Virus record (IMG/VR): IMGVR_UViG_2563366980_000013
Source of the DNA: a virus
Lineage: Duplodnaviria; Heunggongvirae; Uroviricota; Caudoviricetes
Strand: one strand, 5' to 3'
DNA length: 34,548 nt
Position 1 is the first letter of the stretch. Every line of letters begins with the position of its first letter. A program made the position numbers and the translations under genes. Under the pieces are notes generated by a model that had not been told where the DNA came from, did no database searches, and saw only the letters and a list, made by a program, of their open reading frames with translations. Below, one piece after another: positions 1 through 29,750 of the stretch.

Positions 1-399
1 TTGTACGGTGCCTTTTGCCGTCAGCGAGGCAGCAGGCACTCCCGTTATCTGACTCCACGGGTGAGTGTGGCTGACGGGCGCCTTGCCGGCTGCAAGGTCG
101 TATGCAGCCTTGACGGCTTTTGGTGTGGCGGCCAGCGTTTCAGAGGTGCTGTTGGTGGCACTGCTCAGTTGGGTGAACCCCTTAGCTGTCAGTGTCGCGT
201 CCGGGTGGTTACGGGAACGTACGTGTTCAGCCAGTGACTGTGCGGCTTCCTCCGTTTTTTTCTTCAGCCATTTCGTCCTGTTTGCCAGTTGCCGGGGGGC
301 TCGATTTGATATCCCGTCAGCACCACCCAGAACCGGATCTGATGTCTCCAGTTGATAGATATTTTCTTCCCACTTTTCTGTTTCATTCAGGTTTCCCAT
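1..399 (-). CDS. Tail fibre protein, N-terminal part (gene continues beyond window start)
   Basis: By identity with the duplicated copy (ORF 998..1384) the frame starts at ATG 397-399 just after the gp48-like stop; the duplicated part contains the motif QLSSATNSTSETLAATPKAVK and an HTHPWSQITG-type repeat typical of side tail fibres. No stop is expected before the window edge. Confidence 0.7.
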   Translation of the reverse strand, partial: MGNLNETEKWEENIYQLETSDPVLGGADGISNRAPRQLANRTKWLKKKTEEAAQSLAEHVRSRNHPDATLTAKGFTQLSSATNSTSETLAATPKAVKAAYDLAAGKAPVSHTHPWSQITGVPAASLTAKGTVQ

Positions 400-1015
400 A
401 ATCAACTGCTCCCGTGGTTATAACTGCCATCATGGATGGCGGTATTGTTATAGCGAATGGCCACAGACTGATACTCCAGGCTGGCCAGATGGCAGCGGGC
501 CGGTGCAAATGCAGCGAGCGTCTGACGCAGCATCGCGGCCTGATCGTTAGTAATGGGCTGTTTCAGAATAACGCGATAAACCGCCCAGGCGGCTGCATCT
601 CCATGAACAAACAGTCCGTTATAGCTGCGATTGCCGTCGTAACTGAGACGACCTGTGCCTTCAATCAGATCCACTTCACCAAAGCCAAAACGGCGGATAA
701 CTTCCCGGATTGACCACGGCGTCCCTTTATACCGGTGTAGTTCGATGGCTGCTTTTATAAGCATGCGGCGAACATCGTCCGATTCCGCCAGCTCCCAGCC
801 ATCGCCAGACAGTGAGAACTGCTCGCCCAGCCATGGCAGCGCAGAACTGTCGACGATATCGACGAGAAAGACCATCAGTACGCTCAGGTCGATGTTATCC
901 AGCCGCCCTGCCAGTCTTCCCAGCGTCCTGAGACTGATATCACCCTCAAGCGGTGGCGGGAGTTGTAATGGCTCAGTCATCAGACACTCCACTCATGTTA
1001 AGTGTGATCGCCGTA
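37..1015. repeat. Tandem direct duplication, copy 1 (979-bp unit)
   Basis: Sequence 37-1017 reappears at 1016-1996; ORF track gives identical proteins at 65..355 vs 1044..1334 and 402..992 vs 1381..1971 (offset exactly 979). Confidence 0.9.
402..980 (-). CDS. Baseplate/tail protein, P2 gpI / Mu gp48-like (copy B)
   Basis: 192-aa product from ATG (fifth residue of track ORF 402..992); position after the J-like gene and before the tail fibre; identical to copy A. Confidence 0.7.
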   Translation of the reverse strand: MTEPLQLPPPLEGDISLRTLGRLAGRLDNIDLSVLMVFLVDIVDSSALPWLGEQFSLSGDGWELAESDDVRRMLIKAAIELHRYKGTPWSIREVIRRFGFGEVDLIEGTGRLSYDGNRSYNGLFVHGDAAAWAVYRVILKQPITNDQAAMLRQTLAAFAPARCHLASLEYQSVAIRYNNTAIHDGSYNHGSS

Positions 1016-1378
1016 CACTCCCGTTATCTGACTCCACGGGTGAGTGTGGCTGACGGGCGCCTTGCCGGCTGCAAGGTCGTATGCAGCCTTGACGGCTTTT
1101 GGTGTGGCGGCCAGCGTTTCAGAGGTGCTGTTGGTGGCACTGCTCAGTTGGGTGAACCCCTTAGCTGTCAGTGTCGCGTCCGGGTGGTTACGGGAACGTA
1201 CGTGTTCAGCCAGTGACTGTGCGGCTTCCTCCGTTTTTTTCTTCAGCCATTTCGTCCTGTTTGCCAGTTGCCGGGGGGCTCGATTTGATATCCCGTCAGC
1301 ACCACCCAGAACCGGATCTGATGTCTCCAGTTGATAGATATTTTCTTCCCACTTTTCTGTTTCATTCAGGTTTCCCAT
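998..1378 (-). pseudogene. Truncated 5' fragment of tail fibre gene created by the tandem duplication
   Basis: First ~122 codons identical to the tail fibre start in copy 1, then the reading frame crosses the duplication junction and stops after 6 unrelated codons (..VYGDHT*). Confidence 0.6.
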
Positions 1379-1994
1379 AATCAACTGCTCCCGTGGTTAT
1401 AACTGCCATCATGGATGGCGGTATTGTTATAGCGAATGGCCACAGACTGATACTCCAGGCTGGCCAGATGGCAGCGGGCCGGTGCAAATGCAGCGAGCGT
1501 CTGACGCAGCATCGCGGCCTGATCGTTAGTAATGGGCTGTTTCAGAATAACGCGATAAACCGCCCAGGCGGCTGCATCTCCATGAACAAACAGTCCGTTA
1601 TAGCTGCGATTGCCGTCGTAACTGAGACGACCTGTGCCTTCAATCAGATCCACTTCACCAAAGCCAAAACGGCGGATAACTTCCCGGATTGACCACGGCG
1701 TCCCTTTATACCGGTGTAGTTCGATGGCTGCTTTTATAAGCATGCGGCGAACATCGTCCGATTCCGCCAGCTCCCAGCCATCGCCAGACAGTGAGAACTG
1801 CTCGCCCAGCCATGGCAGCGCAGAACTGTCGACGATATCGACGAGAAAGACCATCAGTACGCTCAGGTCGATGTTATCCAGCCGCCCTGCCAGTCTTCCC
1901 AGCGTCCTGAGACTGATATCACCCTCAAGCGGTGGCGGGAGTTGTAATGGCTCAGTCATCAGACACTCCACTCATGTTAAGTGTGATCGCCGTA
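1016..1994. repeat. Tandem direct duplication, copy 2 (979-bp unit)
   Basis: Same as copy 1; the junction at 1016/1017 shares a 2-bp 'ca' microhomology with the distal end at 1995/1996. Confidence 0.9.
1381..1959 (-). CDS. Baseplate/tail protein, P2 gpI / Mu gp48-like (copy A)
   Basis: Identical to copy B; its start ATGACTGA overlaps the stop of the upstream J-like gene (translational coupling). Confidence 0.7.
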   Translation of the reverse strand: MTEPLQLPPPLEGDISLRTLGRLAGRLDNIDLSVLMVFLVDIVDSSALPWLGEQFSLSGDGWELAESDDVRRMLIKAAIELHRYKGTPWSIREVIRRFGFGEVDLIEGTGRLSYDGNRSYNGLFVHGDAAAWAVYRVILKQPITNDQAAMLRQTLAAFAPARCHLASLEYQSVAIRYNNTAIHDGSYNHGSS

Positions 1995-3055
1995 CAGTTT
2001 GCCCATTCGTTTTCTGCCACCACCCTCAGTGCCGGTGTCACCAGTTCAACCTGGTACACCCCGGAAACGGACAATGCACTGATAATCTGGCTGGGGACAA
2101 TATCGCGTCCCAGCGTGGCGGCACGTGATGCCACCCAGTTCTGTATGGCGCTGTTAGCGGCATCTTTTACAGACCTGGCATCCTGATCACGATAGATCGT
2201 AATCCTGGCTTCAATGGTGTAATCCACCTTCACTGGTGTTTTAGCCCGCACTGTATCAGTGAGTGGCCTGACTTTCTCATCAGAGCAGAAACTCTCTACC
2301 AGCGTGAGAACACCGCCGTCCGGCAGACCGGTACTGAGCAGCGGATACAGATCTACGGTCCCGGGAACCGGGGAAAGCACAGCAACATCGACAATGTTGG
2401 GATGGGCCTGCATGGCATGAAAGCGGTATGCGCCACGGCTTCCGGCATTGGTGAATGACTCCGGGGCCAGCCTGATACGCTCCCGGAGCCTGTCATCGTC
2501 TTCCTGTTCTGAACCGCCGGAACTGGCCGTCAGATTGCTCACCAGCAGGTCGACGTTATCAATCTCATCGAGTAACTGACTGACCTGCGCAGGTTGCCAG
2601 CCGTTACCAGCGGTACCGGGTTCGGTACAGGTGGACGTGACATTGACCAGCAGCAATCCGGCCTTCAGTACCACATCTGTATCGGTGGCAAAAATAACGC
2701 TGTCGGAAGCGCTGACGCGGGTGCCTGCCGGGATCAGCACATCAATGGTCAGTGCCTCATCCACAGAGAACTGAAGTGTGGTGGTGGCAGGCTGCGCGGC
2801 AAGGCGGTATACACCAACCAGTTCTCCGAGGTAATCAATCATCGGCTCTCGTGAAAAGGCGACCAGATTCTGCTTTGCTGCCTCCTGTACCGCAACCCTG
2901 ACCAGCATTTCGCGATAGGCCCACAGATCAATCAGCAGACGTTCTGCCTGTGCCGGGTACAGCGTTTTGCCGGTATCCGCTTCATACTTCGCAATCATTT
3001 CTGCTGTGATTTTGTCGGCATCGCGTTCAATAAAATCGGGTTCTGTCAGCGCCAT
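1952..3055 (-). CDS. Baseplate protein J-like (Mu gp47 / P2 gpJ family)
   Basis: 367-aa ORF; position between the W-like and I-like genes; sequence character consistent with baseplate J family. Confidence 0.7.
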   Translation of the reverse strand: MALTEPDFIERDADKITAEMIAKYEADTGKTLYPAQAERLLIDLWAYREMLVRVAVQEAAKQNLVAFSREPMIDYLGELVGVYRLAAQPATTTLQFSVDEALTIDVLIPAGTRVSASDSVIFATDTDVVLKAGLLLVNVTSTCTEPGTAGNGWQPAQVSQLLDEIDNVDLLVSNLTASSGGSEQEDDDRLRERIRLAPESFTNAGSRGAYRFHAMQAHPNIVDVAVLSPVPGTVDLYPLLSTGLPDGGVLTLVESFCSDEKVRPLTDTVRAKTPVKVDYTIEARITIYRDQDARSVKDAANSAIQNWVASRAATLGRDIVPSQIISALSVSGVYQVELVTPALRVVAENEWANCTAITLNMSGVSDD

Positions 3056-3393
3056 AGCAGCTCCTGAGTCCGGGTCTGTCCGTCTGAGCCTTTCCAGCTC
3101 ACCCGGAGCGTAAGATGTTCGCCGTCGACGGCGGGTTTAACTGACATAAGCTGGCAGCGGGGCTCCCAGCGCCGGATGGCATCGACGGATTCGCGCACCA
3201 CATGCGGAATGGCCCGGTCTACAGGCCAGTCGATATAAAGATGCAGATTGCTGCCGAACTCCGGGCGATGCGGGTCGCTGCCGCGGGGAGTCCGCAGGAT
3301 AATTTGAATCGCCTGCCGGATATCATCCAGCCCCCGGACAATTTCGCCGGGAGCCTGCAGGGCTGGTTGCCAGAATACTGAGGTCGTTTTCAT
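3046..3393 (-). CDS. Baseplate wedge protein, GPW/gp25-like (Mu gp46)
   Basis: 115-aa ORF; size and position typical of GPW/gp25; overlaps the J-like start. Confidence 0.65.
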   Translation of the reverse strand: MKTTSVFWQPALQAPGEIVRGLDDIRQAIQIILRTPRGSDPHRPEFGSNLHLYIDWPVDRAIPHVVRESVDAIRRWEPRCQLMSVKPAVDGEHLTLRVSWKGSDGQTRTQELLWR

Positions 3394-3447
3394 GGGGGCA
3401 GTATTGCCCCCGTGCGGGAACGCTGATATTAAAGGCGTTTAAGAAGC

Positions 3448-4044
3448 TCAGTGGGAGTGGTGGCTGGAGTTTTCGCCATCAGACAGCATACTGCCCGTGG
3501 CATGGGCATTCCCTTTAATCTCGATATTGCCATGGATGGTCGCGGTAACACCTTTACCACCAGAACCCGCCATGCCTCCTTCGTAAATCAGCTTACCCCT
3601 GACACGCAGATCTCCGGTAAGTTCGGTTTCCGGTGCGTCAATCGTGGCTTTCTGTGTTTTCAATACCACATCAGCACCACACTCAATGACAATATGCTCA
3701 ATGCCGCCCCGGATGGTCAGAGTGTGCGTCTTCCGGTTGTAGCTGTACTCTGCACCATCAGCAAACCGGGTTCCCCGGATATTTTTGTCACTGAACGGTG
3801 GTTTATCGACGTCTGAGTACACCGCGCCCAGAATAACACCATCCTCGCCGTTGGCATCGAGCAGCACCTCAACCTGCTCCCCCACGTCAGGGAGCCAGTA
3901 ATCTTTGTTATCCTGGGTATTGCGCTGCAGCACGTTAAGCCAGTTTGTGCGCAGGTTATCGCATTCAGGCAGACGAACGCGGGCCTGAACCCTGTCGGCA
4001 TCAACGGCACTGACCGTACCGACCTGACGAGTGACACCAGTCAT
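3448..4044 (-). CDS. Baseplate assembly protein V / spike (Mu gp45-like)
   Basis: 198-aa ORF with a Gly-rich C-terminal part; position after the gpD-like gene. Confidence 0.65.
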   Translation of the reverse strand: MTGVTRQVGTVSAVDADRVQARVRLPECDNLRTNWLNVLQRNTQDNKDYWLPDVGEQVEVLLDANGEDGVILGAVYSDVDKPPFSDKNIRGTRFADGAEYSYNRKTHTLTIRGGIEHIVIECGADVVLKTQKATIDAPETELTGDLRVRGKLIYEGGMAGSGGKGVTATIHGNIEIKGNAHATGSMLSDGENSSHHSH

Positions 4045-5195
4045 TTTTTCTTCTCCTTAATCACCGTCGATGTACTGCCATCCGGGTGATAAACCGTGAG
4101 TTTCTGAGTTTTTTGTTTTTTCCCTCTTGTGACTGGCCCCCGTGCCACTTCCAGCTCTGTGGTGTAGCCGCTGTTACGGTCAAACGCATGGCGGGCAGTG
4201 GTTATGAGCCATGGCCCGGATAACTGCCCAAAACCCACCAGTTCAATTTTGTTGCCTGCTGTCAGTTGAGGTGTTCCCGTCAGCGTCAGGGAGCCGTTCT
4301 GCTGGTATTCGTTATGTCTGGCCAGTGCTGAATCCGCTTTAATCCGGGCACTGTCCGGGTCGCTGACGCGGCTGTTAACTTTAAGTGAGTCAGCGCTGGT
4401 AACCTTACCACCTTTGAGCTTTTTGTCGCTTTCACGGGTACCACCATCAGCTTCGTAGACGATCAGTTTTTTACTGCTGCTTTTCTGGTGTTTTACCTTT
4501 GCAGATTTATAGACCCGGTTGATGGTGTCACGCAGGGAAAAGCGGGCCACATCCTGCGGTTTTAACTGCCTGACCGGCTCCTGACTGCGCAGTGTGGCCA
4601 GATGAGAAAAAATCAGCTGGTCACTGACCACTTTCACTGCATAACCATACTCGCTGGCCAGCCGGCGCAGAAAACCCACGTCGGTTTCAGCATACTGGGT
4701 CACCCGGTCGATTCTGATGGACTCAATGCTGCCCACCAGTTTCAGTCGGTGCTTTCTGGCAATCCGCCCCGCAACAGCTGCCAGCGTGGTGTTCTCAAAA
4801 CCACGACTGGTTTTAGTCCGCAGGGCACTGTTAACCGAGGTGGCCACCCCACGGATAGAAACAACGGAAGCGGGCGAACTCACTTCGATCTCGTCTATAG
4901 AGAACGTACCGCAGGACAGCAGCTTCTCGCCCTGATAGCCCATTTTCAGCGTCAGCGTGTCACCCTTGCCCGGATACCATTTATCCAGCCAGCGGCCATC
5001 GGTGTCGTCCAGCTCCACCTCAATGGTATCGGACTCATTTTTGATGTTATCGCTCCAGGTCACACGGGTGACATAAGGCGCGATATCAGAGGTGATGTTT
5101 TTCTGCAGATACCACAGAGTGAACACCGGTGTCAGCACATCGCTGACGCCGGTTAACGCTGATGTGACTTGCGCAGTGCTGTTTATCTCAGCCAT
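4041..5195 (-). CDS. Tail protein, late control D (gpD) / Mu gp44 (P)-like
   Basis: 384-aa ORF downstream of tape measure and U-like genes; GPD-family size and composition. Confidence 0.65.
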   Translation of the reverse strand: MAEINSTAQVTSALTGVSDVLTPVFTLWYLQKNITSDIAPYVTRVTWSDNIKNESDTIEVELDDTDGRWLDKWYPGKGDTLTLKMGYQGEKLLSCGTFSIDEIEVSSPASVVSIRGVATSVNSALRTKTSRGFENTTLAAVAGRIARKHRLKLVGSIESIRIDRVTQYAETDVGFLRRLASEYGYAVKVVSDQLIFSHLATLRSQEPVRQLKPQDVARFSLRDTINRVYKSAKVKHQKSSSKKLIVYEADGGTRESDKKLKGGKVTSADSLKVNSRVSDPDSARIKADSALARHNEYQQNGSLTLTGTPQLTAGNKIELVGFGQLSGPWLITTARHAFDRNSGYTTELEVARGPVTRGKKQKTQKLTVYHPDGSTSTVIKEKKK

Positions 5196-23158: not shown

Positions 23159-23482
23159 ATGACTGAACCGAAACAGTCTGGTATTAAAAAAGGGTTCCTC
23201 TTTGGGAGCAGAATCGGAGAGCAGAATAAAACTTACACGCTAAGCTTGGATGCATGTTGTCCAACCGAAGCGATTATAGAGCTGAAAAACGTTCTGGTTG
23301 CACTTGAAGAGAGAAGAAGTCATTTCGCCAGCGGAGAAAACAACGTCATGCTAATTGGCGATGTGGCGGCGACATCACGATATAAAACCGCACCTAATCC
23401 TGCGATTCAGTTATCCTTCGACCAACGAATACTGGAAGCGGAATCAGCAGTTCCCAGAACGGTTCGTCCTCACCAGTCTTAA
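23159..23482 (+). CDS. Hypothetical protein (accessory)
   Basis: 107 aa from ATG with good RBS (AGGGGAGG, 8-nt spacing); no recognised family; 3' end overlaps the convergent gene 23394..23969. Confidence 0.45.
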   Translation: MTEPKQSGIKKGFLFGSRIGEQNKTYTLSLDACCPTEAIIELKNVLVALEERRSHFASGENNVMLIGDVAATSRYKTAPNPAIQLSFDQRILEAESAVPRTVRPHQS

Positions 23483-23969
23483 CTGGGGCTGCTTCACCCG
23501 ACCAGTAAAGCCAAGCACGGTGATACAGTTCCAGCACCGGGCAATCACTGTTCAATAACCTCATATCTCCGCGATGCACCTGCTCATTTGTGATGACTTC
23601 ATATATCGGTGCCGTTCTTATTTCGTCTTCGCCTCTCTCATCAGCCAGTAATTCCCTGAACTTCCTGACTTCACTCAGATGCTGACAGGCAAACAGTGAC
23701 TGATAGCGGGAAGGTTTATCAGGAAAATGGCTACGGCGAACTAACTCAAACACCAGACCGACCAGCAGACTTCTGCTGATTCCACTGTCATCTTCCATTT
23801 TAGGGCCGGGGTTATAGAGATAGTTATACCCGTGACTCGAAAGGCCATTGGGATACATCTGATGAAGAAAAGCGGCCAGTTCTGGCATTTCAGGCTCGTA
23901 TTTTCCGGTAATTACATGACAAGGCGAAGGCAGACGACTAGCGGAATCAAGTGTGTAATACGTTCCCAT
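23394..23969 (-). CDS. Hypothetical protein (accessory)
   Basis: 191-aa ORF; intermediate GC; no recognised family. Confidence 0.5.
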   Translation of the reverse strand: MGTYYTLDSASRLPSPCHVITGKYEPEMPELAAFLHQMYPNGLSSHGYNYLYNPGPKMEDDSGISRSLLVGLVFELVRRSHFPDKPSRYQSLFACQHLSEVRKFRELLADERGEDEIRTAPIYEVITNEQVHRGDMRLLNSDCPVLELYHRAWLYWSGEAAPVKTGEDEPFWELLIPLPVFVGRRITESQD

Positions 23970-24378: not shown

Positions 24379-24990
24379 TCAAAAATCTGGAGAAGGTATA
24401 TCTATCTGACCGACGTTTCGTAACCACATCTCTTGCTTTGTTTCTTTATTGGTTCGGGCGATATCATTAGCATTGTATCTGCATGTTTTAACCGCAACCT
24501 CACGAACTCGTGCTATAGGAGTATTTGTGTAGAATTTAAGATCTTCCTCTACCGCTCGTATGGCGATAAGCCCTCCACTCTGAAAACCGCTGGTTACTTT
24601 TAAAAGATCAACTCCTTGGTTATAAACGGCATTACATACGTTAGGGAACTCATCTTCTACAGTTTTGGGGATCATCAGCATATCAGGAAGACCCTGTAAC
24701 ACGTTATCTTCCTTTGGCCTCCATGCCCTTCCCAAAAAAGCTGTTATAGGTTGTGGTGTAGAAAGAAATGCCAATTCTATATAAAACAAACCACTGTAGT
24801 GATCGCGTAACGAATAGACTAGTAAATGATCTTTTCCAGTTTTACTTGCATTGCTAAGTTTTATATCAAATGGTTTTTTCTGGTACTTAAGCAATCCATC
24901 AACTCCCGCATAATAATGCTTTGAAACAGCAACAGAAAGTTGATGTACTTGGTTCGGATAATCTGTTCTATATCGTTTAATTAGCCCCAT
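24379..24990 (-). CDS. Hypothetical soluble protein, second gene of the repressor-linked cargo pair
   Basis: 203-aa ORF in clearly AT-rich DNA relative to the phage backbone; 20 nt downstream of the membrane-protein gene on the same strand. Confidence 0.6.
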   Translation of the reverse strand: MGLIKRYRTDYPNQVHQLSVAVSKHYYAGVDGLLKYQKKPFDIKLSNASKTGKDHLLVYSLRDHYSGLFYIELAFLSTPQPITAFLGRAWRPKEDNVLQGLPDMLMIPKTVEDEFPNVCNAVYNQGVDLLKVTSGFQSGGLIAIRAVEEDLKFYTNTPIARVREVAVKTCRYNANDIARTNKETKQEMWLRNVGQIDIPSPDF

Positions 24991-25010: not shown

Positions 25011-25997
25011 CTATTTCAAAATATAACGATATTTACTATCTGGAGTGTTTTGTTGGTCAAGTAATAGAGCTCTACATGGGGCGGTCAAAACACGGGCATA
25101 ACGACCATCGGGGTTTATGTTGATGTAACAAGTTTTCCCTTTAACACCATAAGATTCAGGTATTATTGCCTGTGTAGACACCGTGAATTTAAGGGTATGC
25201 CAGCCCGATTTTTGCTTGTAGCTTGAAACCGAATGGAAATCATCTGAGTACTTATTTAACCCTGGAAACATGCTGCGTAATGCTGGGATGGAATCTTCTA
25301 TTATTTTGTCGTTGGTTTTAATGTTAAAAACGCTGGTTTCAGTAGATGCTACTGCTTTAGCATTTCCCCATTTACCAGCGAACACAATCATTCCCACGAA
25401 AAATATTGCGACAAGAACTAACGCTCCCCCCAACACTACTACATGAGGCTTCCGGCTTCTGGTTGGTACAGTCGCGACTGATTTTGCCCCGCTGTCCGAT
25501 GGAGGTGATAGAGTTTTACTCTCATCACGAATATTCAGCAGATCATCAAAATAACCAAACACAGCCTGCAACTGCTCTTTGTCCAGGCCTTTAAGATGGG
25601 TTGTACCGAAATGCTTCAGACAGTATCTGTCACGGTCAAGACGATACCTAGGGTCAGTAAGCACCATTATTTTGCTGACCAGAAGATTACAGTCCTTCAT
25701 ATTCTGGATCTGTTGTGCATATCTCTGGAGGATCTCAACCGCACCATGATAATCAGCCGCAGTCATTTCATTAACTGTTTTGGTATTAAGTTTCGTGTGG
25801 ATCGTCATCCATAGTTCGCGCTTACTTTCCCCCAGATCAACCAATTCATCCATCAATCTGTGTAAATCGCGTTTTTGCAGCAACGAAATTGGTTGCTGGG
25901 CAGAGGGAAGTATGTCAGCAGAATAGTTATGAATGGTAACATCACCGCTGACAACGTTACCCACATCTCCGTTAACTGTTTGCTTCTCTTTACTCAT
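25011..25997 (-). CDS. Hypothetical single-pass membrane protein, first gene of the repressor-linked cargo pair
   Basis: 328 aa; N-terminal ~185-aa soluble domain, one TM helix (HVVVLGGALVLVAIFFVGMIVFAG), C-terminal ~115-aa domain; start overlaps the repressor stop (ATGA); AT-rich. Confidence 0.6.
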   Translation of the reverse strand: MSKEKQTVNGDVGNVVSGDVTIHNYSADILPSAQQPISLLQKRDLHRLMDELVDLGESKRELWMTIHTKLNTKTVNEMTAADYHGAVEILQRYAQQIQNMKDCNLLVSKIMVLTDPRYRLDRDRYCLKHFGTTHLKGLDKEQLQAVFGYFDDLLNIRDESKTLSPPSDSGAKSVATVPTRSRKPHVVVLGGALVLVAIFFVGMIVFAGKWGNAKAVASTETSVFNIKTNDKIIEDSIPALRSMFPGLNKYSDDFHSVSSYKQKSGWHTLKFTVSTQAIIPESYGVKGKTCYININPDGRYARVLTAPCRALLLDQQNTPDSKYRYILK

Positions 25998-26455
25998 TTT
26001 CTCTTTGTATTTTTGTTCATTATTCCACCTGTTCCTATGGTTACGTTACCTTTGATAACATTCCCCAGAACATCTCCATGAATAACCTGTTCCGCCCGTT
26101 CTCTGGAGGAGCCAGTCGTCAATGCCGACAAAACTGAACCTTTGACTTGTAACGGTGCTTGCCGGTAGTGCTGAAGTAACTCCATTTCATCACGTGATAA
26201 AGTTATACCTGATGATTCCCCAGTAAGAATGAACTGTACGTTGGCCCCAATTCTTGCAAAGGCTGCAAGTAACTCACCTCCGGGAACTGCAACCCCTCGT
26301 TCATATTTCCCCCACATTTCTCTTGAAACGCCACAAAGGGCTGCTACTTCAGCCTGCTTGAGTGATAACCGCGAACGCTCAGCTTTGAACCGCGACGCGC
26401 AAAGAGAATCAAAATTCACATAAACCTCATTGACAATGAGAACAATAGTTCTCAT
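25994..26455 (-). CDS. HTH (XRE/Cro-C1-type) transcriptional regulator, putative prophage repressor
   Basis: HTH region ..LSLKQAEVAALCGVSREMWGKYERG..; divergent from the Ner-like early gene across a 50-bp intergenic region; true start may be an internal GTG/ATG. Confidence 0.65.
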   Translation of the reverse strand: MRTIVLIVNEVYVNFDSLCASRFKAERSRLSLKQAEVAALCGVSREMWGKYERGVAVPGGELLAAFARIGANVQFILTGESSGITLSRDEMELLQHYRQAPLQVKGSVLSALTTGSSRERAEQVIHGDVLGNVIKGNVTIGTGGIMNKNTKRK

Positions 26456-26505
26456 AATCTATCACATATAAAACAAACATCATTGCATCAACAAAGGAGA
26501 CAACA
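26456..26505. promoter_or_regulatory. Divergent repressor/early promoter-operator region
   Basis: 50-bp AT-rich spacer between the divergently transcribed repressor and Ner-like genes, with AAAGGAG RBS before the + strand ATG. Confidence 0.45.
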
Positions 26506-27980: not shown

Positions 27981-29750
27981 ATGAATGCTGCCCTGACTGA
28001 ACGACTGGTTTATGTCGCCCGCGCGGCACGTGACGCGGGGCATGGTAAACGCGGTGCAATATACGACGCTGCCTGTGCTGAACTTGGCATGTCCCGCGCC
28101 ACTCTGCTGCGCAGGCTGAAGGAGGTATCTGTGACTGATAAACGCAAAAAACGCGCCGATGCCGGGCGCAGCGCCCTGACCCGCGACGAAGCCGCGCTGA
28201 TATCTGCCACACTGCGTGAGGCCACCCGCAAGAACGGTAAGCGTCTCTATTCCATCGCAGATGCAGTGGAAACCCTGCGGGCTAACGGCTTTATCTCCGC
28301 AGGCAGAACAGATGAAACCACCGGTGAGTTTTTCCCGTTGTCCGAAGATGCCATCAGTCGTGCCTTGCGTAACTATGGCCTGCACCCAGAACAACTGGAT
28401 GCCCCTGCGCCGCATACCGAAGTGGCCAGTCTGCATCCCAATCACGTCTGGCAGATTGATGCCTCGCTCTGCACGCTTTACTACCTGAGCAATGGACACA
28501 AAGGGCTGCAGGTGATGGACAGCGCGAAGTTCTACAAGAACAAACCCGCTAACCTTGCCCGTATCGCCAGTGACCGCGTGTGGAGTTACGAGATTACCGA
28601 CCATGCCAGCGGCTGGATTTACGTTGAGTATGTGACGGGTGCGGAATCCGGTGAGAACCTGTGTTCTGTGCTTATCAACGCCATGCAGGAGCGTGGCGGC
28701 GCAGACGTGCTGCACGGCGTGCCGAAAATACTCTATCTCGACCCCGGCTCGGCAAACACCGCGGGTATGACGAAAAACATGTGCCGCTCACTGGGCATCG
28801 ACCTGATAGCGCACAAGCCGCATAACGCCCGCGCCACCGGACAGGTGGAAAAGGCGCGTGACATTATCGAACGCAAGCTGGAGCCGGGTCTGAAATTCCG
28901 GCCGGTTCACAGTCTGGAAGAACTCAACGCGCTGGCCGCGAAATGGCGTAGCCACTTTAACGCAACAGCTGTTCACAGCCGCCACGGTAAAACCCGCACG
29001 GATATCTGGCTGAAGATTACTGCTGAGCAGCTGAAAAAAGCGCCTTCCGTTGAGGTATGCCGTGAACTGGCTGTGGCGACACCAGAACTCCGCAAAGTCA
29101 CGCCAAAACTTCGTGTCTCGTTCCGGGGCACTGAATTTGACGTATCAACGGTACCGGGCGTACTGGTTGGTGAAAAACTGATGATTACCCGTAACCCATG
29201 GCGCAGCGATGTGGCACAGGTGGTTCTGACCGGTGAGGACGGCCACGAGACGTTCTTCCTGGTCGAAGAGGTCAGAAAGAACGAGTTTGGCTTTGCTGAA
29301 GGCGCGGCGGTATTTGGCGAAAGTTACAAAGCCCTGCCGGAAACACCGGCACAGACGGCGGCAAAAGAAACCGAAGCGCTGGTCACCGGTACAGACAACG
29401 CCGCAGATGCAGCTGCCGCACGCAAGGCGAAGGCGCTGCCGTTCGGCGGGCGGCTTGACCCGTATAAACATATTGATGACGCCACACTTCCGGCCTGTAT
29501 ACCGAAGCGCGGTCAGGTCTCTGATGTACGCAGACCGCGCACTGAACAACGTCCCATGACTCATGTGGAGGCCGCGAAAGCCCTGCGCGATAAGTTCAGC
29601 GCCGACGGCCTTACCTGGACGCCGGAACATTACCGCCAGTTAACGGCACAGTACCCGGACGGCGTACCGGAAGCCGCACTGGATGAAGTAATGGCCACGC
29701 TGACCACGCCGGCCCGCAGCAGCGTTATCAGCATTGTTAACGGCAACTGA
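27981..29750 (+). CDS. DDE transposase (retroviral-integrase-type catalytic core; Mu A functional analogue)
   Basis: 589 aa; candidate catalytic residues in HVWQIDAS, LYLDPGSANT and HKPHNARATGQVEKA; followed by an AAA+ partner gene. Confidence 0.8.
   Translation: MNAALTERLVYVARAARDAGHGKRGAIYDAACAELGMSRATLLRRLKEVSVTDKRKKRADAGRSALTRDEAALISATLREATRKNGKRLYSIADAVETLRANGFISAGRTDETTGEFFPLSEDAISRALRNYGLHPEQLDAPAPHTEVASLHPNHVWQIDASLCTLYYLSNGHKGLQVMDSAKFYKNKPANLARIASDRVWSYEITDHASGWIYVEYVTGAESGENLCSVLINAMQERGGADVLHGVPKILYLDPGSANTAGMTKNMCRSLGIDLIAHKPHNARATGQVEKARDIIERKLEPGLKFRPVHSLEELNALAAKWRSHFNATAVHSRHGKTRTDIWLKITAEQLKKAPSVEVCRELAVATPELRKVTPKLRVSFRGTEFDVSTVPGVLVGEKLMITRNPWRSDVAQVVLTGEDGHETFFLVEEVRKNEFGFAEGAAVFGESYKALPETPAQTAAKETEALVTGTDNAADAAAARKAKALPFGGRLDPYKHIDDATLPACIPKRGQVSDVRRPRTEQRPMTHVEAAKALRDKFSADGLTWTPEHYRQLTAQYPDGVPEAALDEVMATLTTPARSSVISIVNGN

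What the first reader, a model, noticed from the sequence alone, without database searches (positions are those of the whole stretch)
25920..26060. Repressor C-terminal tail and N-terminus of the adjacent membrane protein share a motif (GDV-GNV--G-VTI)
The repressor ends ..VIHGDVLGNVIKGNVTIGTGG.. and the next protein begins MSKEKQTVNGDVGNVVSGDVTIHNYS... Roughly 11 of 17 aligned positions are identical, and the two genes overlap by 4 nt. This could reflect a local duplication, a shared interaction or oligomerisation strand, or regulatory coupling between a membrane-anchored protein and the repressor.
Basis: seen in the sequence. Interest (0 to 1): 0.5.

Follow-up and report, generated by a model that had tools for sequence, protein, structure and literature searches.

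The report
Repressor tail matches membrane partner's N-terminus
A prophage repressor and the membrane-anchored protein encoded right after it carry the same short strand-forming motif at their facing ends, and this matched pairing recurs with at least 13 different motif sequences in many prophages, which points to an undescribed way of coupling a phage repressor to the cell membrane.

Summary
The XRE-type repressor (25994-26455, minus strand) ends QVIHGDVLGNVIKGNVTI plus a basic tip. The next gene (25011-25997, minus strand, ATGA overlap) begins MSKEK-QTVNGDVGNVVSGDVTI. That is 11 identities in 17 aligned positions, and 0 of 20,000 composition-preserving shuffles reach the score. At DNA level the two segments are only about 60% identical, so this is not a recent duplication.

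The window is a BcepMu-like transposable prophage of E. coli. The partner has four parts: the motif, a Flk_N helical domain, a transmembrane anchor and a periplasmic domain.

In 120 related loci, at least 13 different motif sequences occur, including two with a RHIM-like G-phi-Q-phi-G core. Each is matched between a repressor tail and the N-terminus of the downstream protein. The repressor cores and partner architectures are shuffled independently of the motif.

The composition (N/G/V/Q-rich, L/P-poor), length (about 19 aa), gene layout and predicted disorder mirror bacterial amyloid signalling motif pairs. The proteins and organisms differ completely from those pairs.

Best reading: the two motifs pair directly and specifically, linking the immunity repressor to a membrane-anchored partner made from the same transcript. 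What this does to lysogeny is inferred only. I found no description in the literature held here.

The parts
25994..26455 (-). Immunity repressor gene (153 aa as annotated; a GTG at 26419 may be the true start). RefSeq WP_001259267 in E. coli SF-088.
   Evidence: ORF list. Pfam HTH_31 E=4.7e-7 and HTH_3. It is divergent from a Ner-like HTH gene, an IclR-like gene, a DUF3102 gene and an rve transposase gene. AF2 model: HTH at residues 15-78, helices at 88-115, tail at 116-153 with pLDDT<50.
26036..26089 (-). Repressor C-terminal motif, Q123-I140: QVIHGDVLGNVIKGNVTI.
   Evidence: Alignment and shuffles. Coordinates. The motif is nearly invariant in homologues whose HTH part falls to 55-57% identity.
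25997..26035 (-). Gly-rich spacer and basic C-terminal tip of the repressor (GTGGIMNKNTKRK).
   Evidence: Sequence. A basic tip follows the motif in 41 of 51 tail-bearing homologues.
25994..25997 (-). ATGA stop/start overlap. This is the layout expected for translational coupling of the repressor and partner genes.
   Evidence: No terminator-like site lies between the genes.
25011..25997 (-). Partner gene, 328 aa (WP_000031885, annotated as hypothetical): N-terminal motif, Flk_N domain, TM anchor, periplasmic domain.
   Evidence: phrog_10002 E=1e-222. AF2 model.
25923..25982 (-). Partner N-terminal motif, Q6-Y25: QTVNGDVGNVVSGDVTIHNY.
   Evidence: In 18 homologues that fall to 44% overall identity, G10, G13, N14, V15, V16, S17, G18, V20, I22 and Y25 are invariant. 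pLDDT is below 50 for residues 1-30.
25518..25943 (-). Cytoplasmic helical Flk_N domain (NCBIfam match at residues 19-147; AF2 helical domain at 31-160).
25374..25442 (-). Single transmembrane segment (residues 186-208, VVVLGGALVLVAIFFVGMIVFAG). It is preceded by the basic stretch RSRKPH, which suggests the N-terminus is cytoplasmic.
   Evidence: Sequence. Hydropathy scan. AF2 helix at 191-207.
25014..25337 (-). C-terminal alpha/beta domain (residues 221-328), inferred to be periplasmic.
   Evidence: pLDDT above 90. Homologous to stand-alone lipoproteins with a signal peptide and lipobox, encoded just after the partner or repressor in L057, L065 and Klebsiella phage KP12.

Best explanation
This is a two-gene module in the lysogenic (repressor) operon of temperate phages.

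The XRE-type immunity repressor carries, after its HTH and two helices, a motif of about 19 residues. The motif is disordered in the monomer and is N/G/V/Q-rich. A basic tip follows it.

The next gene, whose ATG overlaps the repressor's stop codon (ATGA), encodes an inner-membrane-anchored protein. Its extreme N-terminus carries the same motif, followed here by a Flk_N helical domain facing the cytoplasm.

I propose that the two motifs recognise each other directly by like-with-like beta-strand (cross-beta) pairing. A share of the repressor would then be held by its own partner at the membrane. The many motif sequences would act as private codes that stop cross-talk between co-resident prophages.

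The most likely consequence is control of how much active repressor is available. This could work by sequestration, or by hand-over to or protection from proteolysis. Either would tune maintenance of lysogeny against induction. The logic is that of a co-transcribed repressor antagonist or adaptor.

Shown here: the motif match, its conservation, its recurrence with many sequences, its modularity and the partner's anatomy. Inferred: physical pairing, membrane recruitment and the effect on lysogeny.
For: 1. The window pair is significant beyond composition.

2. Both motifs are the most conserved parts of otherwise diverging proteins.

3. Among 108 repressor/downstream pairs from 120 loci there are 64 non-redundant pairs, and 33 of these have a real cognate match. 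Permuting partners gives a summed score of 1460 +/- 71 (max 1734), against 2458 observed.

4. Fifteen of 17 class representatives, covering at least 13 different motif sequences, are individually significant (z 4.7-12.8). In L100, AGRDY has become ALGDY on both sides.

5. The motif is modular. Repressor cores about 60% identical carry different tail classes. The same class occurs with Flk_N+TM partners and with unrelated Zn-ribbon+2TM partners. L053 has the window's architecture, but both motifs have switched to another class.

6. The match persists when the genes are not adjacent (L086, L019). In L072 it is shared by two HTH proteins plus one partner.

7. There is no DNA-level repeat or gene conversion. 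Median nucleotide identity is 57%, and identical residues share a codon at 44% of positions.

8. Composition: N x3.2, G x2.0; L x0.12, P x0.14. Median length is 19 aa. The motif sits within about 3 residues of the termini. These features match those reported for bacterial amyloid signalling motifs (10.1101/2020.01.06.895854).

9. Both motif regions have pLDDT below 50 in monomer models.

10. Nearly all phage-type Flk_N proteins in a 1.8-billion-protein library start with such a motif. Bona fide Flk proteins do not.
Against: No interaction has been predicted or measured.

Within the commonest class (NRxAGRDY), cognate pairs do not match better than non-cognate pairs of the same class (ranks 2-16). 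Co-variation is therefore seen between classes, not within this one.

The two motifs are usually encoded within about 150 nt. One recombination event can swap both at once, so the number of independent events is closer to the number of classes than to the number of loci.

Some tail-bearing repressors have no matching neighbour within the DNA held (L021, L024/25, L029).

Two partner types (L110, L116) have no TM segment, so membrane anchoring is not universal.

Low pLDDT is also what any unconstrained terminus would give.

The functional outcome, and even its direction (inactivating, stabilising or neither), is not constrained by the data.
Confidence: 0.55

Rival explanations
1. Amyloid-like signalling proper. 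On some cue the membrane partner oligomerises, its N-terminal motifs nucleate a cross-beta fold, and this fold templates the repressor tails. The repressor is thereby cooperatively inactivated or aggregated, and the prophage is induced. This is a special case of direct pairing with a specific mechanism.
For: The genomic logic is the one used to discover BASS motifs: a C-terminal motif in one protein, an N-terminal motif in the protein from the adjacent collinear gene, often with overlapping genes. Composition and length are the same. Many motif families exist. Two classes carry the G-phi-Q-phi-G core shared by RHIM, PP and BASS3 motifs (GGVQVG in L116; VVQIG and SIQIG in L110). Some partners carry pseudo-repeats, for example NRTAGRNYYEVKNANNVAGRDVIHV in P0287, as described for BASS and HET-s. 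These repressors lack an S24 peptidase domain, so they need some other induction route.
Against: There are no fibril or prion data. No NLR-type or Bell-type domain is present. BASS motifs were reported in multicellular bacteria, not in Enterobacterales. Pfam RHIM, pentapeptide and bactofilin models do not hit the motifs. A 1:1 beta-strand complex would explain all the sequence data equally well.
Confidence: 0.2
2. The direction is reversed. The partner is a membrane effector for abortive infection or superinfection exclusion, comparable to RexB or HeLo/Bell. It is switched on through the repressor tail, and the repressor-DNA complex acts as the sensor.
For: Genes just after prophage repressors are classically exclusion or abortive-infection genes (lambda rexAB; from my own knowledge). 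Many partners are small proteins with one or two TM segments. The periplasmic or lipoprotein module next to the partner, or fused to it, resembles typical exclusion morons.
Against: No PADLOC defence model matches the partner. The Flk_N domain is a cytoplasmic protein-interaction-type helical module, not a pore-former. L110 and L116 partners lack any TM segment.
Confidence: 0.1
3. The two motifs do not bind each other. Both bind a common third factor, such as a protease, adaptor or chaperone. The partner's N-terminus would then act as a decoy or competitor that modulates repressor turnover (tail mimicry).
For: The motif sits next to a basic C-terminal tip. Tail-less homologues often end in ...RKK(K/R)A. 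This is reminiscent of basic ClpX recognition tags, and of Mu repressor control by ClpXP through its C-terminal tail (from my own knowledge).
Against: More than 13 unrelated motif sequences occur in closely related hosts whose proteases are conserved, so a host factor could not track them. No conserved third phage gene accompanies the pair: the next gene is orf203 here, DUF8087 in the P2-like prophage, and a lipoprotein elsewhere.
Confidence: 0.1
4. The match is an evolutionary relic. A gene fission or junction duplication left similar ends that are each conserved for unrelated reasons, with no functional link between them.
For: A weak hint that this HTH and a Flk_N/ORF6C-like domain can occur in one polypeptide: the repressor matches positions 10-88 of the 267-position phrog_17822 profile, and the downstream protein of L033 matches positions 107-264. 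The two motifs are encoded within about 150 nt.
Against: This would need the same accident at least 13 times with different sequences. Similarity is held at protein level while codons differ. The match is kept with different partner architectures and when the genes are separated.
Confidence: 0.05

Closest known systems
Amyloid signalling motif gene pairs: bacterial BASS (Bell-domain protein / NLR), fungal HET-S/NWD2, and RHIM (Dyrka et al., 10.1101/2020.01.06.895854)
   Same: A motif of about 20 aa lies at the C-terminus of one protein and at the N-terminus of the protein encoded by the adjacent collinear gene, which often overlaps it. The motifs are N/G/Q/V/I-rich and L/P-poor. There are many unrelated motif families, each matched within its pair. 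Pseudo-repeats occur on one side. One family has a G-phi-Q-phi-G core.
   Different: The carrier proteins are a DNA-binding prophage repressor and a membrane-anchored Flk_N or Zn-ribbon protein, not Bell/HeLo and NLR proteins. The hosts are unicellular Gammaproteobacteria and their prophages, not multicellular bacteria. There is no experimental evidence of fibrils. Sequence membership in BASS1-10 was not tested.
Flk (Fluke/RflH), the flagella biosynthesis regulator of Salmonella and E. coli (PMC13344023)
   Same: It has a homologous Flk_N helical domain and the same topology: a cytoplasmic protein held by a C-terminal membrane anchor. It acts on a regulatory circuit by holding something in check at the membrane.
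   Different: The window protein scores 44 bits against an equivalog cutoff of 353. It has one Flk_N unit instead of two. It carries the N-terminal motif, whereas Flk starts MQPxSGPG (Pro/Gly-rich). It has an extra periplasmic domain and is encoded in a prophage immunity operon.
Co-transcribed repressor antagonists and membrane sequestration of regulators (ImmR/ImmA of ICEBs1; RseA-sigmaE; Mlc-PtsG) - from my own knowledge
   Same: A regulator is encoded beside, or captured by, a partner that controls its availability. The partner is made from the same operon, or sits in the membrane.
   Different: There is no protease domain as in ImmA, and no homology to any of these proteins. Recognition would be through short matched terminal motifs rather than folded domains.
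Mu repressor C-terminal tail and ClpXP control - from my own knowledge
   Same: The repressor of a transposable phage has a flexible C-terminal tail with regulatory potential and a basic end.
   Different: The DNA-binding fold differs (XRE HTH here). No partner with a matching motif is known for Mu. Protease involvement here is untested.
Ant-type anti-repressors with ORF6C / Rha-N plus Flk_N-like C-terminal domains
   Same: Relatives of the partner give weak hits to anti-repressor PHROGs and to Pfam ORF6C. Four members of the Flk_N family begin with an N-terminal sequence that I recognise by eye as Rha-like (not tested with a profile).
   Different: The window protein itself has no such hit, has no Ant, KilA-N or Rha N-terminal domain, and is membrane-anchored.

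Membership tests
Amyloid signalling motif pairs (BASS / fungal ASM) | A short motif shared by the C-terminus of one protein and the N-terminus of the product of an adjacent collinear gene | tested here: met
   In the window there is a 4-nt overlap and the motifs lie at the extreme termini. Across 40 distinct pairs the median motif length is 19 aa, with about 3 residues after the motif in the repressor and about 2 before it in the partner.
Amyloid signalling motif pairs (BASS / fungal ASM) | Composition enriched in N, G, Q, V, I and depleted in P, L, K | tested here: met
   N x3.2, G x2.0, V x1.4, Q x1.35; L x0.12, P x0.14, K x0.76, each relative to the rest of the same proteins. Compare.
Amyloid signalling motif pairs (BASS / fungal ASM) | Carrier proteins are an NLR (NB-ARC or NACHT plus repeats) and a Bell/HeLo-type or other cell-death effector | tested here: not met
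   The repressor has only HTH_31/HTH_3. The partner has Flk_N, a TM segment and a periplasmic domain. There are no NB-ARC, NACHT or Bell hits.
Amyloid signalling motif pairs (BASS / fungal ASM) | Motifs form amyloid fibrils or prions, and the N-terminal motif templates the C-terminal one | not testable with these tools
   This needs peptides, ThT/EM, or a Podospora or yeast prion assay.
Amyloid signalling motif pairs (BASS / fungal ASM) | Sequence match to a described motif family (BASS1-10, RHIM, PP, HRAM, sigma) | tested here: inconclusive
   No Pfam model hits the motifs, and the BASS profiles are not available here. Only the G-phi-Q-phi-G core is seen by eye in L110 and L116. The window's motif has no such core.
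Flk (flagella biosynthesis regulator) | Flk_N domain | tested here: met
   NF007987 E=1.6e-11, residues 19-147 against profile positions 14-143. PF27202 (Flk_N) is recorded on homologues.
Flk (flagella biosynthesis regulator) | Equivalog-level score, full-length two-unit architecture of about 333 aa | tested here: not met
   44 bits against a cutoff of 353, with a single matched stretch. True Flk representatives show two stretches and start MQPxSGPG.
Flk (flagella biosynthesis regulator) | [quoted passage not shown] | tested here: inconclusive
   There is one TM segment at residues 186-208 after the cytoplasmic domain. However, a 108-residue periplasmic domain follows it here. Relatives of about 195-215 aa do end at the TM segment.
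XRE/Cro-C1-type prophage immunity repressor | An HTH_3/HTH_31 domain, divergently transcribed from the early lytic or transposition operon of a prophage | tested here: met
   Pfam hits. The gene is divergent from the Ner-like, IclR-like, DUF3102, rve transposase and ExeA-family (ATPase-type) genes. The same position is occupied in a P2-like prophage, next to the integrase. Repressor activity itself is not tested.
LexA/CI-type self-cleaving repressors | C-terminal S24 peptidase domain | tested here: not met
   There is no Peptidase_S24 hit in the window protein. Only three distant homologues carry PF00717.
Pentapeptide / hexapeptide / bactofilin beta-helix repeat proteins | A match to the repeat family models and several consecutive coils | tested here: not met
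   There is no Pfam hit even at E<=10. Only about three G-[DN]-V-x-x units are present, which is less than one coil.

The most novel reading that the evidence does not exclude
Temperate phages of Gammaproteobacteria use prion-like, RHIM/BASS-style amyloid templating as a lysogeny switch. A membrane-anchored sensor nucleates a cross-beta fold on its N-terminal motif. This fold converts the matching C-terminal tails of the immunity repressor, giving an all-or-none, SOS-independent route to induction or to exclusion. Motif diversity would provide private channels for co-resident prophages. This would extend functional amyloid signalling to unicellular bacteria, to viruses of bacteria and to transcription control.
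Probability: 0.2. Interest if true: 0.95.

Novelty: new variant of a known kind. Interest (0 to 1): 0.78.

Why it matters
Most repressors of Mu-like, BcepMu-like and P2-like phages lack LexA-type self-cleavage, and how their lysogeny is tuned or broken is poorly understood.

A motif-coded link between the repressor and a membrane-anchored partner would be a new regulatory layer in prophages. These prophages are common: the window's module is in 127 of 5,426 complete E. coli genomes, and relatives of the NRxAGRDY module are in 524. Both proteins are annotated only as 'hypothetical' or 'helix-turn-helix'.

It would give a first functional handle on the phage branch of the Flk_N family.

If the pairing is cross-beta, amyloid-type signalling would move out of multicellular bacteria and NLR immunity into phage gene control.

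It is directly testable in available ETEC strains such as B7A and ATCC 43896.

Tried and rejected
- **Reciprocal locus search.** A search with a partner alignment failed because no stretch was conserved enough. I used a profile protein search instead.
- **PADLOC.** There was no defence-system hit for the partner, orf203 or DUF2441.
- **Pfam on the bare motifs at E<=10.** There was no RHIM, pentapeptide, hexapeptide or bactofilin hit.
- **Phage GenBank collection.** No deposited phage carries the whole partner. Only the periplasmic domain is found, in KP12 and Phi06_2974 B.
- **Literature.** Searches on amyloid signalling plus prophage, repressor or HTH, on Flk-like or Flk_N, and on P2-like lysogenic-operon membrane proteins found no description of this pairing.
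- **Fine-scale co-variation inside the NRxAGRDY class.** Not seen.
- **L034.** Its apparent match is an artefact of overlapping reading frames and was discarded.
- **DNA-level repeat or operator explanation.** Rejected on nucleotide identity.
Full report
**What is in the window.** The region is identical to a prophage in E. coli SF-088 and other human isolates. The annotation and Pfam hits identify it as a BcepMu-like transposable prophage.
- Structural and lysis genes lie on the minus strand.
- A divergent early operon lies on the plus strand: a Ner-like HTH gene, an IclR-like HTH gene, a DUF3102 gene, an rve transposase gene and an ExeA-family (ATPase-type) gene.
- At the hinge is a minus-strand operon. 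It holds an XRE-type repressor (25994-26455; Pfam HTH_31/HTH_3), a 328-aa protein (25011-25997) that overlaps it by ATGA, and a 203-aa ORF 20 nt further on.
- No terminator-like site appears until about 24100.

- No composition-preserving shuffle out of 20,000 reaches its score, even when only the 21-residue core is shuffled.
- Nothing else in the six-frame translation of the window comes close.
- The coding DNA of the two segments shares 37 of 60 positions and differs at many synonymous sites, so this is not a recent duplication or a DNA repeat.
- The repressor motif lies at 26036-26089, slightly outside the stated interval. The partner motif lies at 25923-25982.

**Anatomy of the two proteins.**
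- AF2 models the repressor as an HTH (residues 15-78) plus two helices (88-115), followed by a tail (116-153) with pLDDT below 50.
- The partner model has five parts:
  - an N-terminus (1-30) with pLDDT below 50;
  - a confident helical domain (31-160);
  - a disordered linker;
  - one TM helix;
  - a confident alpha/beta domain (221-328).
- The helical domain is a Flk_N domain. NCBIfam Flk gives E=1.6e-11 but only 44 bits against a cutoff of 353. Homologues carry the precomputed Pfam entry PF27202, labelled Flk_N.
[quoted passage not shown] The partner is therefore Flk-like in domain and topology, but it is not Flk.
- The C-terminal domain is extracytoplasmic. In relatives the same domain is a separate lipoprotein, with signal peptide and lipobox, encoded just after the partner (L057, L065). 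In Klebsiella phage KP12 it follows a tail-less repressor.

**Conservation.**
- Partner homologues fall to 44% overall identity yet keep G10, G13-N-V-V-S-G18, V20, I22 and Y25 invariant.
- Repressor homologues with the same tail keep GDVLGNVIKGNVTIG. Their HTH halves diverge to 55-57% identity, or are replaced by a different HTH.

**The key result: many motifs, always matched.** Homologous repressors carry quite different short tails. I fetched 40 genomic and 80 viral loci with the repressor profile. I then compared each repressor's last 40 residues with the start of the downstream protein.
- The tail matches the neighbour's N-terminus again and again, each time with a different sequence:
  - FNGDISGQFAGNQIIN / FNGTAQGQFSSRDIIN
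  - VSGKGNRVAGRDFNEN / STGGQNRVAGRDFNEN
  - FHGNTIGQVVDGDIKN / QHSQIGQVAAGDIIN
  - IHGGQF..INNY on both sides
  - HRFALGDYHE / HRIALGDYYE
  - GGVQVGYVGG / GGVQVGKVDG
  - VVQIGSVGGN / SIQIGNVTGN
- Of 64 non-redundant pairs, 33 have a real cognate match. Permuting partners gives a summed score of 1460 +/- 71 against 2458 observed.
- Fifteen of 17 class representatives are individually significant against shuffles (z 4.7-12.8). Two are weak.
- Within the commonest class, cognate pairs are not better than non-cognate ones. The signal is therefore between classes.

**Modularity.**
- Repressor cores about 60% identical carry different tail classes.
- The NRxAGRDY motif is found on two unrelated partner types: Flk_N+TM partners, and Zn-ribbon proteins with two TM segments.
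- L053 has the window's full architecture, including the periplasmic domain, but both its motifs belong to another class.
- The match survives separation of the genes (L086, L019). In L072 it is shared by two HTH proteins and one partner.
- Nearly all partners have TM segments. L110 and L116 do not.
- In a profile search of 1.8 billion representative proteins the Flk_N family is small (204 clusters). Its phage-type members almost all start with such a motif, whereas true Flk proteins start MQPxSGPG.

**Distribution.**
- The module sits in the repressor operon of BcepMu-like prophages.
- It is also found in P2-like prophages, in the order repressor, partner, DUF8087, integrase, divergent from an early operon that ends in gpA.
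- It occurs in Enterobacterales, Pasteurellaceae, Pseudomonas, Francisella, Thiomicrorhabdus and others.
- The window's version is in 127 of 5,426 complete E. coli genomes. Relatives of the NRxAGRDY version are in 524.

**Nature of the motifs.**
- The median aligned length is 19 residues and the median identity is 55%.
- The motifs lie within about 3 residues of the termini.
- They are enriched in N, G, D, V and Q and almost free of L, P, M, C and W.
- Identical residues use the same codon only 44% of the time.
- These are the properties, and the gene layout, by which bacterial amyloid signalling motifs were defined. Two classes show the G-phi-Q-phi-G core of RHIM, PP and BASS3 motifs.
- Against membership: the carrier proteins are entirely different, the hosts are not multicellular, no Pfam repeat or RHIM model hits the motifs, and nothing is known about fibrils.

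**Interpretation.**
- The recurrence of like-with-like ends, held at protein level and shuffled independently of both protein bodies, is best explained by direct and specific motif-motif recognition. This would tie the repressor to a partner made from the same transcript.
- The features shared across partner types are the cognate motif and, usually, a membrane anchor. Membrane recruitment of the repressor is therefore the likeliest immediate effect.
- The downstream consequence is inferred. It could be sequestration, hand-over to or protection from proteolysis, or templated inactivation.
- The rivals are a shared third factor, a reversed effector role and an evolutionary relic. They are weighed in the Rival explanations section.
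- I found no description of this pairing in the held literature.

Noticed in passing
window 24379-24990 (-): The third gene of the repressor operon (203 aa, no Pfam or PHROG hit) is a distant paralogue of the phage's own transposase core: 23% identity over 194 aa to window ~28434-29015, tblastn E=2.5e-8. It is present in identical prophages but absent from the ~90% variants (L044-L050). It may be a truncated-transposase-like inhibitor or immunity factor.
   Followed up: partly
window 26419-26458: A strong sigma70-like promoter (TTGACA-17-CATAAT, 11 of 12 matches) on the plus strand at 26430-26458 overlaps the annotated repressor ATG at 26455. Most homologues start MNFDSL, so the GTG at 26419 may be the true repressor start.
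   Followed up: partly
window 25014-25337 (-); L057 4091-5053; L065 3689-4282; L122 (KP12) 2486-3019: The partner's periplasmic domain is a separate lipoprotein gene in related prophages. It lies immediately after the partner, or after a tail-less repressor in KP12. The window's 328-aa protein therefore looks like a fusion of two neighbouring genes.
   Followed up: partly
repressor homologues P0058-P0105: Homologues that lack the motif tail often end in ...RKK(K/R)A, KKKSA or RKVA. From memory, this resembles basic ClpX recognition tags such as MuA's RRKKAI. The motif-bearing tails also end in a basic tip.
   Followed up: no
window 37-1996: There are two perfect tandem copies of a 979-bp unit (37-1017 is identical to 1016-1996). 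This duplicates a 196-aa minus-strand ORF at the tail-gene end of the prophage. It is either a very recent duplication or an assembly artefact.
   Followed up: partly
L072 ~3328-4500: One viral contig encodes two consecutive HTH proteins that both end in the NRIAGxDYNETKG-type tail. They are followed by one Flk_N partner with the same motif, so three proteins share one code.
   Followed up: no
L006-L010, L016, L017, L020, L022 (downstream genes): Repressors of the same family that have a different helical C-terminal domain and no tail are followed by small Zn-ribbon or TM proteins. These carry an internal beta-like motif (ITISVGGDNPGSIHVGSVVNIN; IKIKGDHGNINLGTQ) with no counterpart in the repressor.
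   Followed up: no
window 23394-23969 (-): A DUF2441 gene lies between the repressor operon and the holin gene. It is 94% identical in Klebsiella phage KP12, where a Dam-type methylase gene sits in the position of the window's orf203. This is a variable accessory-gene slot.
   Followed up: no
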